A stretch of DNA of 64,000 bases from contig JARFYF010000012.1 in the NCBI GenBank assembly GCA_030265395.1, positions 16,576,418 to 16,640,417 on the forward strand, in the 5' to 3' direction. Origin of the DNA: Rhina ancylostomus (lineage: Eukaryota). Shown here in pieces: positions 45,401 through 51,400 of the stretch. Numbering within the stretch: the stretch's first letter is position 1; every line of letters begins with the position of its first letter. Made by a program: the position numbers.

Positions 45401-48400
45401 ATGCTCTGCGCATACTCCTTTTTAAAATTAAATATTATCCAATGCCTCTCAAAAATCTAAATGAGCACAAAAAAATTGGAAAAACAACTTGCTGTCTACG
45501 ATTCTACAAACACCTATTATATCTGTGGAGCGCCCTTCTTCTAATAATTTATTTAAACTATTCTTTTTCTGTTCAAACCTTCAGTAGCTGTGAAATTTTG
45601 GAGAGGATCACAGACACTATTTTAGTTTAAAAGGGAGCAATTATTCCATGGTGTTTTAGCTACTTTCTTAGACTGGAAAATGTAAAGCACTTAAAAATGA
45701 TAATTTTGTGTTTCATGATCCAACTGATGTCTCTGATTATAAAGAGTTAATTAAGAAAGCCCTCCCTCCCCTTCAAAATGACATTTAGATAGCACAAGGA
45801 AAAAGCTTTTTGCATTTGGTCTTGTACATGATTTGCATACTGTTGCCATCGAAAACAGCTTTGACAATTGAGCCATATTAAGAAACACTTTCTCAAACTA
45901 TATGAGTATATTTCAAATCGATTTTAAAAGTACAATTTAACTAATTGGAAGCATGACAGTGGAATGTCAGAATTCATTAGGATCCTAAAATGTAAATTTT
46001 GCACTAAAATCTGTGTGTAAAATATCTCAAACTAGATAGCTATAGAGAAAGAAAATCGGTATCGAGATGGTTAAAACAACTTTCCTAATGCAAATCCAAT
46101 GTTATGTTGCCTACAATTGTTTTTTCTTTTTTTTTGTTTCTTCTTCACAGAAGACATTCTTATGAAAGCAGTGTTACAAAGGTCACAGTTTCAAGTGTTG
46201 GATAGAAGGTCGCTACCTGAGCTGACCACCTCTTAACCACAGTGACTGGCCTTATCTGAAGCCCATCGGGTGAAATAAAATATAACCGTGCACTGTAGCA
46301 TACAGTAACTTACCCAGCTGTTTAGATTGAGGTGCCAGCAACCAAACTGATGGAAAAAGGAGAGCCCAGAGGCTAACGTTCCTCCTTTATTGTTCCCTTC
46401 TTCCATTCCCAGCAAAATTGCATCCCTCGGGTACATGCCGCCTTGTCTTCTGTTGTCTCTTAACCTCTACAACTTTCCCCCCCTTTCTCTCTTGCCTTGG
46501 TGCCGACTGCGCTTTTGTTTCTTCCTGGTTTTTCTAGCGTCTTTTTTTAAAGTACTAAAAAAAGATGTCTCAAAAGATCAAGAGCTTCCCAGTTCTGTGG
46601 CCTGGTGTTTTTAGAACCAACATCCTCATTCAAGTTTGCCGTTGGTTGCATCTTAGTCCGGGTGCAATCCTATACCTGCTGTACAGCAGGGACCAAAATT
46701 TAGGACACAAACGATAACAGATCACTGCATCAAAATGCTCACTTAGGAATGAGCAAGACCGCACACACGGGTATAACCTCTTGCGTACTATTTATTTTCT
46801 TTTCAAAGCCTACAACTCTCCTAGGATTACCAAAATGACAATGCTGCAACTCTATATGGAAAGGTATCAATAAGAGCAGGAGAGAAGAGACAAGCAGCGG
46901 TTAAGGGAGCATGATCAACAAACTGTAGCATGCAGTCACATCTGTGGGAATGTCAAATCCCTCACGCTGAAGTTCTGGGGGTAGAGCTGTGAGAAAGCCC
47001 TATTTCTTGTCACAGTGACATATATATATCATACATATACACACACACACACTCACAGACACACACACACACATATATATAGATATATACACACACACAT
47101 ACACACACACACACACACACATGAAAACAGACACCTGTGAGGTCTTGCCATCAATTCCAAGTTTTTTTTATTATAGTAGTAAACGCAAAGAGGAGAAAAG
47201 GCAAAGCACTAGATCTCACTGCAGCTTCTCTTGGCTGACCTCAGCTACATACAATATACAAGAGCAGCTTTTGTATTGCAAGGATTCTCTTTTGAGTTGC
47301 TTTGCATACTGCTTCCCGTCGCTAATTGCATCCCCAAACAAAACCCTCTCCATCTTAAAAATTGAGGGGAAGGTGTGGGGGTAGGCAGCTCAAATGTTCC
47401 AGTAAATGTTTTACACAATAAAAGCAAAATTAATGAAATGGTCCCATTAACCCTCACCCCACCTTCTCAATGTAGGTGGAACTTAGCACCCGACACCAAC
47501 CCCTGCCCCTTCACCCCATCACAGGATTTCAAAATAACCCCATCAAGTTTTGAAAAAAAGATCAAACTTCACACCACACACACCATTTTAAACTCCTAGA
47601 TGAGGTACTACGGGACACTTAACACACCTTTCCTCATCTATCTACAACTGGGCAAGGAAAGTGACAAGACACACAAGTACTGGAGAAACAAAAGTGTGCA
47701 GTTTTTCACTCTTTATTTAGCGCTCCACACTAATCTGGCCTTCACGTGCAAAGTGTCGGCCAGAAATCTTTAAGGCCTTAATACCAAAACAAAACCTTTG
47801 AATTCCCTTTATATGGTGCAATACAGGCACTAACAAAGGCAATGAGGCTGCAGTTTGACATGTAAAAAGCCCAACAACGAGGCAGCTAATTACATTCCCT
47901 CCCTCTATTCACAGTGGCCACCACACTCCAGCAGCTTCCTTTGTCACACGTGCAATTTCTTAAGTAAACTGGGAGTTTGGTTGCTGATGATGGACAGTTA
48001 CTAATCATTTAGCACAATGAGCACTAAGTGCGGCAGAAAGGATGGGCAACTTCATCACAGATTTCTTTGGGATTGGAGGATGCAAGAAGAAAAAGGAGCG
48101 GGACGAAAGCTCGCCACACAGGCGACGGAAGGTGAACACTATCAGATCAACTTCAACCATTGCGTCTAGTTAAAACAAAACTAAATGCTTCCTTCATTCA
48201 ACAGTTTTAAAAAGTTTCATATTTTTAAAAATTGTACTTATAATGAAACAGACAAGCAAAACAATTTATCTAAAAGTTATCATCTTTGTTTGTCCAAAAT
48301 AGCACTTCTCAAAGCTCCAACAGTCAGGCCTCCTTAAATTGTTCTAACTTACCATTTACACCTACTCAAATTACGATGCTTCACACTGCCTGAATTCAAG

Positions 48401-51400
48401 CATGCTGCTGTTCCCGTGCTACAGTACAAATCAGCAAGCTCTTCATGATGTGGGCAGATCCACTGGAGGGCAGCACCCTACCTGAGCCACTTACAGCCAA
48501 GATGCTGCTGAGATAGGGGCACGAAGCGACTGCATCCAACTCCAGCTCTCCAGGAAAAGATGCTCAAGTTCAGGTCTATTCAGTGAATTACCTTGCTTCA
48601 CGGGAAAGAGATAATGAGATGGCAGCGCTCATTTGATCAGAAGCAGCCCCAAACCACCCTTAACAGTTCAGAAAAGAACAAAAGATCAACTGTCGCATGC
48701 TTACTTGGCAACATTAAAACCAGTTGAAGCCTCTCATAATGTTAAATTGACTGGTATTTTGAAGCCACAGACAAAAAAAAAAGATTTTCGCCCCTCACTC
48801 CTCCCCCACGCTGTATAAAAACTAACCTACCTTTTATTTTCCCCACATATCCAGCTCAGCTAAACACGCTGATCGGGAAATGCCAAAACTAAGCAATAAT
48901 TTTCACACATTGAATCCAAGTTTTACAAAAAAAATTAACTTAAGACAGAATATCTGTACACTTAATGCTTACAACTGCCGAATGTGGCAAGCGGCTCCAT
49001 AAAGCTTCACTGCCCACTTTTGAAGCCTGCGTTACTAACACACGCAGAATGACACCGCTGAGCGCCTTTAAAGAATACTAGGGAAAAAAATGACTATTGA
49101 TCTTCAAATGGTGATAATTGAAAAGATCAAAAGATTAAACAAAATCAAAAAATGCGCTGACTTACCATGTTATGCTTTTTTTGTTACAACTTGGTTGAAA
49201 TTTCAGTCAAACAAGCTTCATCGGAGGTGTCAAATTTTTTGGCGGACTGTGATCGTATTACTTCCGCAGCCTTGCCTCACAATACTTCAGAACTTTTTAC
49301 CTAGCTTTGGTTTACTTTGAAAGCTGCAGCTCAGCAAACCAGCACAAATTATCTTGCCACCTTCTACAGCTCTGATGCTTTGGCCGCTAACTTTGGAAGG
49401 CCCTTTACTACTGCATCAAAATTAGCATTGTCAAAGCAGTTAATGAATATTAATACTGTATTTGTCATTGGAGCTGGCCTGATGCTGAACTCCGAGCCAT
49501 CCATCAGGGACAAGATTAAGAACACAATTATTTCTGACTGACAGGGTCCAAATCTGCTAGATTTTTTTTGCAATCTAAAAAAAAGAGACAAAAAAAATAA
49601 CATCTTATGGGTTCCCCCTGGGGACTAACAGTCAGATTAATACACTTTTAATGAAGTGAAGGCTATTAAGTATGAAGAAAAAGCAAACAAGATGTACAAG
49701 TCGAACTTACAAATGCGGCAAGGTGGCTGATAAAAATTAAAAGAATCGCATATCTTTTTCGACAGCTGTCTGAAATTTTTCTTCAGAGCTTTCTGGAATG
49801 AAGAAAGAATCTTTCTTCCCAAATCTGCATCATTTGAATAAGGAATGCACTGTTATAACCCACTTGGGATAATTGTCTCTATCTTACATCTTAACAACAT
49901 CAACTCAAAGACAGGATCCTAAATAATTCCTACACAAATATTATAATCAACACTTCCTTAAAAGCAATGGACAATCACAATTATTCTCTCTCACATCTGC
50001 ATAAATTATATCAAAAATATTTTGCAAAATAAAAAGCACTGAATAGAATCTTGTACACATTGTTACGATATACAATATAGTTTGCAAAAAAATTACCTTG
50101 AACAATTAAAGGACAAAAAGTAGATTTAGATTCACTGCCCAAATCCTAGGAGCAACTTTGACATTGCCAATTTTTGTGGAGATTTGGAAGTCTTGAAATC
50201 AACAAAGGGCAACTTGGATCAACTAAGTTCTCTTGTACTTGCAGCGAAAGCACACTAACGCTCCCGTGTTTAAAGACATGGCCTGCCTTTCTTGTAAATC
50301 TACAAACACACGGTAAATATCATTTGCTATTTACTCATATTCACTTTCTCACATCACCAAGTTTTGTTCCCTGTATTTTAATTGATTTGCGTATGGTTTA
50401 CACATTTTTAAAAAATGCACTACGCAAAATGTCTATCCCGCTAATACAGGATTTGTGATGGGAAAGAAGAGAAAAGTTCAGATGCAGTATTAAGGAAGGA
50501 AGTCTGGACGATAGTCATTTGAATTGCAAACCTAAAATGTTTAAATTTCTCAGCCACCCTTCAAGCATAACCCCGATGCACCAAAAGCGGCCAAGTATAG
50601 GACCAGTCTTATCCCTGCTCACAGGGCTCATTTTCTATTCTCTGCAATGTTAAACCTTTTCAAGCTATTTTATTTAAAAGGTGACTTAAGGTTGGGGAGG
50701 AGCAGGAGGAGGAGGAGGAGGAAAATGAAAAAAAACAGAAAACTGACAGATGCAACGGTTAATGCCATCTGACCAGTGAAACGAGGGTGCCTGGGTCAAG
50801 CAACTATGGCTACCGAACTAATCTACTGCTCTCACTGACCACCCTACTGGCTGCTCCTAATACCATTAGCAATCGTTAGATGAACATTCTAAATTGGAGT
50901 TTTGTCCTCCGACGAGCTGGTCTGACCCCAGTGCAACAACCCTGCAGCTCCATATACAGATGGCAAATCTCCTGAAAACACTTCTTTCAGCTTCTAAGAT
51001 TTTCTTCCCGTGCATGTGTCCTTTTCTTCCAAACTATTCTCTTTACCCTCCCTAACTCAAAATAAACTCTGATAACATGAAGATGTGCCCACTTCTCCTG
51101 CCAGTTACTTGTACCATTCAATTTCAGCTGCAAGTCCCAATACATTTAGAACAATCTGTTGCATTTTACTTGTCTTTGGACGAATTACTTTTTACACTGT
51201 GCTCTTCAGAATGGGGGGGGTGGGGTGGGGTGGGGGGTGGTGGTGGAAGGGAGCATTTGCGACAATGGAGAATGTTTGGGAACACTGCCAGATTTGAGGC
51301 TTTCGAACCAAATGAAGTTAGAGGCTGCAGACTCTGTAGCAGTGGGTGCAGAAAGCCTGACAGAACATTTACGGCAGACAGCTCCCGCTACCTCTACTTA

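What the first reader, a model, noticed from the sequence alone, without database searches (positions are those of the whole stretch)
46308..49560. Clustered internal-promoter system: three in-frame first exons within 3 kb
Seen: three GTAAGT donors (exon ends 46314, 48353, 49166), all phase 0 with an in-frame ATG. Two are the identical ATG|GTAAGT only ~810 nt apart; the only other copy of this 9-mer I noticed is the real exon 12 donor. The region is locally CpG-richer. Inference: an ancient multi-promoter module producing Wnt-repressing dnTCF7L2, which would date this antagonist system to at least the jawed-vertebrate ancestor.
Basis: partly seen in the sequence, partly recalled or inferred. 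Interest (0 to 1): 0.75.

Follow-up and report, generated by a model that had tools for sequence, protein, structure and literature searches.

The report
Conserved alternative first exon of TCF7L2
One of the three proposed start exons is a real, anciently conserved alternative first exon that yields a TCF7L2 protein without its beta-catenin-binding end, a known kind of Wnt antagonist, while the other two proposed exons have no independent support.

Summary
The window holds exons 6 to 17 of TCF7L2 on the minus strand. Everything from 35606 to 64000 lies upstream of exon 6, and exons 1-5 are not in the window.

- **The raw observation is in the sequence.** This covers the three GTAAGT sites, the two ATG|GTAAGT copies and the raised CpG.
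- **One exon is confirmed.** The exon ending at 46314 encodes 41 residues (MYPRDA...WHLNLNSW). The same N-terminus joined to exon 6 is annotated in little skate (39/41 identical), chicken, three squamates, platypus and five placentals. It also occurs as an open frame in three teleosts. This alternative first exon therefore predates the split of cartilaginous and bony fishes.
- **The two ATG|GTAAGT sites are undecided.** They are statistically unusual (post hoc), share no flanking similarity, and matched no annotated isoform among those I could examine.
Block 49504-49361 is 43/48 identical to the N-terminus of three bird TCF7L2 models. In this skate a TAG closes the frame two codons before the bird junction.
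- **The CpG-richer domain is wider than stated.** It spans about 46-56 kb and is not a classical CpG island.

The parts
46314..46436 (-). Coding part of the conserved alternative first exon (i), 41 codons: MYPRDAILLGMEEGNNKGGTLASGLSFFHQFGCWHLNLNSW. The 5' UTR and TSS lie further upstream at higher coordinates and were not located.
   Evidence: tblastn of 14 named N-termini maps here, E 1e-13 to 2e-24. It is 39/41 identical to Leucoraja erinacea isoform X18 (P0100). All 15 aligned sequences have 41 residues without indels, and 14 columns are invariant.
46308..46313 (-). 5' splice site GTAAGT of exon (i) (TGG|GTAAGT), phase 0.
   Evidence: The junction ..NLNNW|SNKVPVV is seen in P0100 and 10 further models. 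The Phrynosoma model reads through as W-V-S, as GTAAGT would translate.
35473..35605 (-). Exon 6 (133 nt), the acceptor exon for all the alternative first exons. It starts in phase 0.
   Evidence: Pfam PF08347, E 5e-19.
49361..49504 (-). Conserved block (ii): MDGSEFSIRPAPMTNTVLIFINCFDNANFDAVVKGLPKLAAKASEL*K. It is followed by AAG|GTGGCA at the position of the bird junction. TAG at 49364-49366 closes the frame.
   Evidence: 43/48 identical to the N-termini of three bird TCF7L2 models (P0049, P0072, P0080), which continue ..ASELRK|SNKV; E 7e-25. The representative search found P0072 and four unnamed short ORFs.
49160..49168 (-). It lies 195 nt downstream of block (ii), inside the sub-region 48.6-49.4 kb that has the second-highest CpG values. 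Status undecided.
   Evidence: A at -3 of the ATG, but 6 ATGs within the 350 nt upstream. No homology evidence.
48347..48355 (-). Status undecided, leaning towards a decoy.
   Evidence: TAA sits immediately before the ATG and T at -3. Another sense GTAAGT lies 141 nt upstream (48489-48494), and there are 5 ATGs within the 350 nt upstream. No homology evidence.
46001..56000 (.). CpG-richer domain with a sense-strand excess of GTAAGT. It is the candidate hypomethylated promoter or regulatory domain of the short isoforms.
   Evidence: CpG o/e 0.43 against 0.22. The top 8 of 64 1-kb bins lie here (Mann-Whitney p 3e-5). GC is 0.39. Peaks at 48.6-49.4 and 53.4-54.9 kb. GTAAGT is 8 on the minus strand and 0 on the plus strand.

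Best explanation
**Setting.** The interval lies in the intron between exons 5 and 6 of a skate TCF7L2 gene.

**Exon (i).** The exon ending at 46314 is a genuine alternative first exon. Transcription starts at an internal promoter upstream of 46436 (inferred; the TSS was not located). Translation starts at the ATG at 46436-46434. The 41-codon exon is spliced from TGG|GTAAGT across a 10,708-nt intron to exon 6 at 35605, in phase 0. The junction is shown by orthologous gene models, not by transcripts of this animal. The product lacks exons 1-5, and with them the beta-catenin-binding domain. It keeps the HMG box, C-clamp and CtBP motifs, which are encoded further down the window. By analogy with mouse dnTCF7L2 it would occupy TCF sites without transactivating (inferred from the literature).

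**Block (ii).** A second conserved sense-strand block at 49504-49361 probably marks a second ancient first exon or promoter core. In this skate its frame is closed by TAG, so here it cannot encode an N-terminus through the bird junction.

**The two ATG|GTAAGT sites.** They may be extra donors of such transcripts or intronic decoys. The data do not decide.
For: **Gene and strand.**
- Exons 6-17 map on the minus strand with a skate model (P0100) and a stingray model (P0118).
- Residues 1-162 of the full-length stingray protein (exons 1-5) do not map in the window.

**Exon (i).**
- An exon-6-only search listed 120 of 3826 hits.
- Leucoraja isoform X18 starts MYPRDA...NNW|SNKVPVV, and Cavia isoform X11 has the same architecture.
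- A profile search of the 41-residue exon gave 26 hits with E<=10. Of these, 14 are named.
- 11 named models carry the exon joined directly to exon 6. The Phrynosoma and carp models carry both with 7 and 25 read-through residues between them. Two further teleost frames carry the exon alone.
- All 14 that were tested map to 46436-46314.
- Length is 41 residues in all 15 sequences, with no indels.
- The ATG has G at -3.

**Block (ii).**

**Domain.** CpG and sense GTAAGT enrichment.

**Literature (passages read).**
- Mouse brain uses at least 10 alternative first exons upstream of exon 6. Deleting eight of them removes dnTCF7L2 protein, and dnTCF7L2 represses TOPFlash (PMC10208975).
- There is an internal promoter in intron 5 (PMC3825142; bioRxiv 10.64898/2025.12.27.696670).
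- A truncated variant is reported for Xenopus and mouse (PMC4963812).
Against: - There is no transcript, CAGE or chromatin evidence for this animal. All junction evidence is borrowed from gene models of other species, many of them computational predictions.
- Models are found only where the frame is open, so the uniform 41-residue length is partly an ascertainment effect.
- Without DNA of other vertebrates I could not separate protein-level from DNA-level constraint.
- Exon 5 was not seen, so 'intron 5' rests on the order of exons in P0118. Two 100-nt N runs (44674-44773, 57689-57788) were left unread.
- Neither alternative peptide matches any Pfam family.
- For block (ii), the only spliced models are three bird annotations of unknown evidence level. 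The skate frame is closed by TAG, and the equivalent donor GTGGCA is weak.
- For the two ATG|GTAAGT sites, none of the 75 N-termini examined (of the 120 listed hits) begins M|SNKV.
Confidence: 0.8

Rival explanations
1. All three sites, and perhaps the other sense GTAAGT sites, are used 5' splice sites of separate first exons driven by a cluster of internal promoters. The two ATG|GTAAGT exons would supply only the start codon (M|SNKVPVV...).
For: - Two ATGGTAAGT on the sense strand within 46001-54000 against 0.055 expected (1 of 2000 local shuffles reach 2). P(>=2 of 8 GTAAGT preceded by ATG) = 0.008.
- 8 sense against 0 antisense GTAAGT in the same 8 kb.
- The CpG-richer domain.
- Candidate 3 sits 195 nt downstream of conserved block (ii) and has A at -3.
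- Mouse uses at least 10 such first exons (PMC10208975, passages).
Against: - The statistics are post hoc.
- No isoform starting M|SNKV was found among the 75 named N-termini examined. However, only 120 of 3826 hits were listed, and 45 of those 120 were not examined.
- There is no flank similarity between the two sites.
- 5 and 6 upstream ATGs lie within 350 nt of the two sites.
- Candidate 2 has TAA-ATG with T at -3, and a competing GTAAGT lies 141 nt upstream.
Confidence: 0.25
2. The conserved blocks are non-coding regulatory elements (enhancers or promoter cores of a developmental gene rich in conserved non-coding sequence). Their open frames are by-products of high DNA conservation that annotation pipelines turned into N-termini. 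No short isoform with these N-termini is made in skates.
For: - Block (ii) is more conserved between skate and birds (43/48) than exon (i) is between skate and chicken (31/41), yet it carries a stop in the skate.
- Neither peptide matches a Pfam family.
- The teleost entries are short 'hypothetical proteins' that run on into unrelated sequence.
Against: - For exon (i), 11 named models in five vertebrate classes use the identical junction to exon 6.
- Start, length and the final Trp before GTAAGT are invariant in 15 sequences.
- In mouse, deleting first exons in this intron abolishes dnTCF7L2 protein (PMC10208975).
- The rival is much weaker for exon (i) than for block (ii).
Confidence: 0.07
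3. Block (ii) is an upstream open reading frame (46 codons in the skate) in the leader of short TCF7L2 transcripts. It would be kept for translational control or as a small peptide, not as a TCF7L2 N-terminus.
For: - The start codon and 41 of the first 46 residues are shared between the skate and three birds.
- The skate frame ends at TAG before the junction.
- Of the four unnamed hits of the representative search, three (51, 86 and 67 residues) end five residues after the aligned part. That is what an unspliced read-through to the TAA at 49349-49351 would give (inference from lengths only, since the sequences were not fetched).
Against: - At about 90% identity any frame stays open by default.
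- The ATG has C at -3.
- There is no Pfam match.
- There is no expression evidence.
Confidence: 0.1

Closest known systems
Mouse Tcf7l2 internal promoter in intron 5 and its dnTCF7L2 / S-TCF7L2 isoforms. Sources: Vacik, Stubbs and Lemke 2011 (not held; known here only through citations). Qi et al. 2023, PMC10208975; Nagalski et al., PMC3825142; bioRxiv 10.64898/2025.12.27.696670 (passages read for these three).
   Same: - Same gene, same intron and same acceptor (exon 6).
- Several first exons with their own 5' splice sites.
[quoted passage not shown]
- Two rodent models (Peromyscus, Cricetulus) carry the same MYPRDA exon.
   Different: - I could not map the named mouse exons (Ex1b-e, exon 5'-1 to -10) onto the window. 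No mouse DNA or exon sequences were available, and supplements were closed.
- Expression, Vax2 control and repression are shown only in mouse.
RefSeq model 'transcription factor 7-like 2 isoform X18' of Leucoraja erinacea (P0100, 482 aa).
   Same: - N-terminus 39/41 identical to the window's exon (i).
- Every later exon of the model that tblastn reported maps in order on the window.
   Different: - It is a different, closely related species or allele. There are 2 differences in exon (i) and 2 in the last exon.
- It is a predicted model whose supporting reads I could not see.
dnLEF1 (LEF1 intron 2 promoter) and dnTCF7 (intronic promoter of TCF7).
   Same: The same logic in paralogues: an internal promoter yields an HMG-box protein without the beta-catenin-binding domain (PMC4963812 and PMC4999783, passages).
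   Different: - Different genes and introns.
- No sequence relation of the first exons was tested here.

Membership tests
Alternative first exons of dnTCF7L2 (intron 5 of TCF7L2) | Lies between exon 5 and exon 6 on the coding strand. | tested here: met
   All features lie upstream of exon 6 (35605) on the minus strand. Exons 1-5 of P0118 do not map in the window. Exon 5 itself was not seen, and two 100-nt N runs were left unread.
Alternative first exons of dnTCF7L2 (intron 5 of TCF7L2) | The 5' splice site is joined in frame to exon 6. | tested here: met
   Met for exon (i). The junction W|SNKVPVV occurs in P0100 and 10 other named models, with a phase-0 donor and acceptor in the window. It is inconclusive for 48353 and 49166: the phase fits, but none of the 75 N-termini examined shows the junction. 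For block (ii) the junction occurs in 3 bird models only, and the skate frame is closed.
Alternative first exons of dnTCF7L2 (intron 5 of TCF7L2) | [quoted passage not shown] | tested here: met
   P0100 runs from exon (i) straight into exon 6 and carries PF00505 (HMG box). Its exons map on the window. A joined model of the window itself was not built.
Alternative first exons of dnTCF7L2 (intron 5 of TCF7L2) | Own transcription start site or promoter activity. | not testable with these tools
   There is only indirect sequence evidence: the CpG-richer domain and the sense-strand GTAAGT excess. No CAGE or RNA-seq data were available.
Alternative first exons of dnTCF7L2 (intron 5 of TCF7L2) | Orthology to the experimentally defined mouse first exons. 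| not testable with these tools
   Vacik 2011 is not held. Supplements are closed, and there is no vertebrate DNA collection. Rodent models with the MYPRDA exon make orthology likely.
Alternative first exons of dnTCF7L2 (intron 5 of TCF7L2) | Represses beta-catenin/TCF reporter activity. | not testable with these tools
   Shown for mouse dnTCF7L2 only (PMC10208975).
Classical CpG-island promoter (criteria recalled: GC >= 0.5 and CpG o/e >= 0.6 over >= 200 nt) | GC and CpG o/e thresholds. | tested here: not met
   The domain has GC 0.39 and o/e 0.43. Some 400-nt windows reach o/e 0.6-0.86, but their GC is at most 0.44.

The most novel reading that the evidence does not exclude
The whole multi-start architecture seen in mouse brain would be ancestral to jawed vertebrates. 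Its features are many first exons in one CpG-richer, hypomethylated domain, each with a strong sense-strand 5' splice site. Within it, block (ii) (49504-49361) would be an ultraconserved element kept for something other than a TCF7L2 N-terminus. That could be a 46-codon upstream reading frame or a promoter or leader RNA element, because the skate closes the frame that birds read through. The ATG|GTAAGT sites would be start-codon-only exons.
Probability: 0.25. Interest if true: 0.55.

Novelty: new member of a known kind. Interest (0 to 1): 0.33.

Why it matters
It places the beta-catenin-independent short form of TCF7L2 in the jawed-vertebrate ancestor, together with a specific 41-residue N-terminal peptide. 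The short form is needed in mouse for thalamic and midbrain functions.

The constant length of that peptide and its 14 invariant positions over about 450 million years (age recalled) suggest the peptide itself may have a function. So far it has been treated only as the absence of a domain.

None of this is a new kind of system. The isoform class is known in mouse and Xenopus, and the skate isoform is already in a public gene model.

Tried and rejected
**Explanations rejected**
- Duplication or a repeat family behind the two ATG|GTAAGT sites. Aligning 101-nt flanks shows only the 9-mer shared, and no repeat family links them.
- Relation of block (ii) to a protein domain. The best representative hit, P0135, is a 3592-residue bacterial multihaem cytochrome (22 cytochrome c7 stretches). 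Each repeat matches weakly (about 35% identity), and the window peptide lacks the CxxCH motif. I take this as a chance resemblance multiplied by the repeats.

**Searches that found nothing**
- Rfam gave 0 matches in the window.
- Pfam gave nothing for either alternative peptide.
- Other annotated N-termini before exon 6 do not map to the window at E<0.05. These are Fukomys, Chloebia, Callipepla, Crotalus, Limosa, Apteryx and Varanus, plus the mammalian cassette ..LPCCTQGH...
- A search for exon 5 with short motifs found nothing. It was replaced by tblastn with P0118.
- Literature: four searches found nothing on short TCF7L2 isoforms in cartilaginous fishes. PMC6908431 says only that other tcf genes likely have such starts, citing unpublished observations (passages).

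**Steps that could not be made**
- The listing of cluster members for P0100, P0038 and P0044 did not complete because the database was switched off. The other members of those clusters, among them possible further skate isoforms, stayed unseen.
- Vacik 2011 could not be read.
- The supplements of PMC10208975, which may give the mouse exon coordinates, were not opened because supplements are closed.

**Left out on purpose**
- I did not examine the unnamed hits (34, 12, 4) or the primate entries (11, one of them listed again). Some may be human.
- The spliced model was searched exon by exon only. The joined protein was not built or searched.
No DNA-level conservation could therefore be checked.

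
Full report
**What is in the window**

The window carries the 3' two-thirds of a TCF7L2 gene on the minus strand.
- With a skate model (P0100) and a full-length stingray model (P0118) as tblastn queries, the following all map in order:
  - exon 6 (35605-35473) and the two parts of exon 7;
  - the FPPHM exon and the two HMG-box exons;
  - two alternative C-clamp exons;
  - the last exon with both CtBP motifs.
- Exon 12 is read directly from the sequence at 15739-15691.
- Residues 1-162 of P0118 (exons 1-5) do not map anywhere in the window.
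- The stretch 35606-64000 is therefore the intron upstream of exon 6. In mouse this is the intron that holds the internal promoter of the short isoforms (PMC3825142, passages).
- Exon 5 was not seen. Twelve N runs were left unread, two of them 100 nt long and inside this intron.

**The observation**

- All three GTAAGT sites lie on the minus strand, each with a phase-0 open frame that contains an ATG.
- Exon 6 begins in phase 0 (ttgacag|TCT AAC AAA), so the phases are compatible.
- The 9-mer ATGGTAAGT occurs three times in the window. Expectation is 0.65, and 5 of 100 shuffles reach three.
- The two intronic copies are 813 nt apart.
- The third copy is the real exon 12 donor, where the ATG is out of frame.

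How much of this exceeds chance is mixed.
- GTAAGT as such is not in excess in the window: 31 against 29.7 expected.
- The intron-5 part has 14 sense-strand GTAAGT sites, and 4 of them have a phase-0 ATG.
- At a background rate of 0.245 per GT, four of 14 is unremarkable (P = 0.46).
- The local picture is less ordinary. Between 46001 and 54000 there are 8 sense and 0 antisense GTAAGT. Local dinucleotide shuffles expect 2.75 and 1.07, and 6 of 1000 shuffles reach eight.
- Two ATGGTAAGT there compare with 0.055 expected, and 1 of 2000 shuffles reach two.
- Both local tests were framed after seeing the data, so I treat them as suggestive only.
- The CpG claim holds, but the domain is wider than stated. 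CpG observed/expected is 0.43 over 46001-56000 against 0.22 elsewhere.
- The top 8 of 64 1-kb bins are all inside the domain, with peaks at 48.6-49.4 and 53.4-54.9 kb.
- GC is only 0.39, so this is not a classical CpG island.

**Exon (i), ending at 46314**

I searched the spliced model exon by exon. The joined protein was not built or searched.
- Exon 6 alone returned 3826 hits, of which 120 were listed.
- Among the named ones, Leucoraja erinacea isoform X18 (P0100) begins MYPRDAILLGMEEGNNKGGTLASGLSLFHQFGCWHLNLNNW and continues directly with exon 6.
- The window encodes the same 41 residues with two differences at 46436-46314, ending TGG|GTAAGT.
- A guinea-pig model has the same architecture.
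- The 41-residue peptide alone found only P0100.
- A three-sequence profile of it found 26 proteins with E<=10, of which 14 are named.
- I fetched the named, non-primate ones and found one more in the first list (carp).

The exon is present, always 41 residues and without indels, in these animals:
- little skate and chicken;
- three squamates: Hemicordylus, Phrynosoma, Liasis;
- platypus;
- five placentals: Mustela, Marmota, Cavia, Peromyscus, Cricetulus;
- three teleosts, as an open frame: Synaphobranchus, Pogonophryne, Cyprinus.

Identity to the window is 24-39 of 41, and 14 columns are invariant across the 15 sequences. All 14 N-termini map to 46436-46314 by tblastn. By parsimony the exon existed before cartilaginous and bony vertebrates split. 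The start codon has G at -3. I could not locate the TSS.

**Block (ii), 49504-49361**

- I looked at the N-termini that precede exon 6 in 75 of the 120 listed hits. The other 45 are unnamed or primate entries that I left untouched.
- Three bird models (Turdus, Hirundo, Colinus) share MDDSEFSNGPAPMTNTILIFINCFDNANFDAVVKGLPKLAAKASELRK|SNKV.
- The window has this at 49504-49361 on the minus strand, 43 of 48 identical, with E 7e-25.
- In the skate a TAG replaces the arginine two codons before the bird junction.
- The equivalent donor in the skate is AAG|GTGGCA, which is weak.
- A search of 1.84 billion representatives with the 46-residue frame returned the Hirundo model and four unnamed short frames that I did not fetch. 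It also returned a bacterial multihaem cytochrome whose many repeats each resemble the peptide weakly. The window peptide has no CxxCH motif, so I take that match as chance.
- Block (ii) is thus a deeply conserved sense-strand element that some annotations treat as a first exon. In this skate it cannot supply an N-terminus through that junction.
- I cannot tell without DNA of other vertebrates whether it is a second first exon with a non-coding leader, a promoter core, or an upstream reading frame.

**The two ATG|GTAAGT sites**

- No examined N-terminus begins M|SNKV. This is weak evidence, given that only 75 of 3826 hits were seen.
- The flanks of the two sites share nothing beyond the 9-mer, and no repeat family links them.
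- Candidate 2 (48353) has TAA immediately before the ATG and T at -3. A competing GTAAGT lies 141 nt upstream, and there are five ATGs in the 350 nt upstream.
- Candidate 3 (49166) has A at -3. It lies 195 nt downstream of block (ii), inside a sub-region whose 400-nt windows reach CpG o/e 0.81. Six ATGs lie in the 350 nt upstream.
- Candidate 3 is therefore the more plausible of the two, as the first strong donor downstream of block (ii). That is inference only.

**How it most likely works**

- *Shown here:* a conserved 41-codon frame with a consensus donor in phase with exon 6, and orthologous models with exactly this junction.
- *Inferred:* an internal promoter in the 46-56 kb domain drives transcripts that skip exons 1-5.
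- *From the literature, in mouse only:* such transcripts make dnTCF7L2. Deleting the first exons removes that protein, and it represses a TCF reporter (PMC10208975, passages). The short form is expressed in diencephalon and dorsal midbrain (bioRxiv 10.64898/2025.12.27.696670, passages). A truncated variant is also reported for Xenopus (PMC4963812, passages).
- The primary paper (Vacik et al. 2011) is not held. What I say of it comes from citing papers and recall.

**Comparison and novelty**

- This is the skate counterpart of a known system, and a sister species already has the isoform in a public gene model.
- Four literature searches found no paper in the held library on short TCF7L2 isoforms in cartilaginous fishes. 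A zebrafish paper mentions such starts in other tcf genes only as unpublished observations (PMC6908431, passages).
- The gnathostome-wide reach of the exon may therefore not be in print. It can, however, be read directly from public annotation.

**What stayed unchecked**

- Cluster members of the skate and mammal models (not completed).
- Unnamed and primate hits, which may be human.
- Any DNA-level conservation, because no vertebrate genome collection was available.
- The mouse exon coordinates, because supplements are closed.
- All expression evidence.

Noticed in passing
window 53485-53493 and 53400-54900: A fourth sense GTAAGT with a phase-0 ATG (ATG GTT GGT|GTAAGT, frame MVG). It sits at the edge of the strongest CpG peak of the window, where 400-nt windows reach o/e up to 0.86.
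   Followed up: partly
window 47039-47121: An (AC)n microsatellite of about 41 copies lies between exon (i) and candidate 2.
   Followed up: yes
window 14852-14929 and 14499-14573: Two alternative C-clamp exons are both present: ..KKCRARFGLDQQNNWCGPC and ..[19 protein letters not shown]. The SFLSG extension before the FPPHM exon (up to 17483) and the LVPQ end of exon 7 (24580-24684) are also present. The known alternative-splicing repertoire of TCF7L2 is thus in place in this skate.
   Followed up: partly
window 13744-13827: The Leucoraja X18 model contains an unusual segment, SNWASYQLQARSEETFIFRR, that maps here between the C-clamp exons and the last exon. It may be a skate-specific or mispredicted exon.
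   Followed up: no
window 44674-44773: A 100-nt N run is flanked on both sides by the same translated motif (VFEIS on the minus strand). This suggests a gap inside a short repeat. It was left unread.
   Followed up: no
hit P0135: A 3592-residue bacterial multihaem cytochrome scored E 6e-20 against the 46-residue frame of block (ii). The score sums many weak repeat matches. It shows how repeats can inflate whole-protein E-values for short queries.
   Followed up: yes
(mammalian models P0032, P0034, P0066, P0071, P0099, P0108, P0110, P0117): Mammalian models carry a cassette exon (..LPCCTQGH..EPW(C/Y)(L/M)E) between exon 5 and exon 6. It has no counterpart in the window, so the same intron holds lineage-specific exons as well.
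   Followed up: partly
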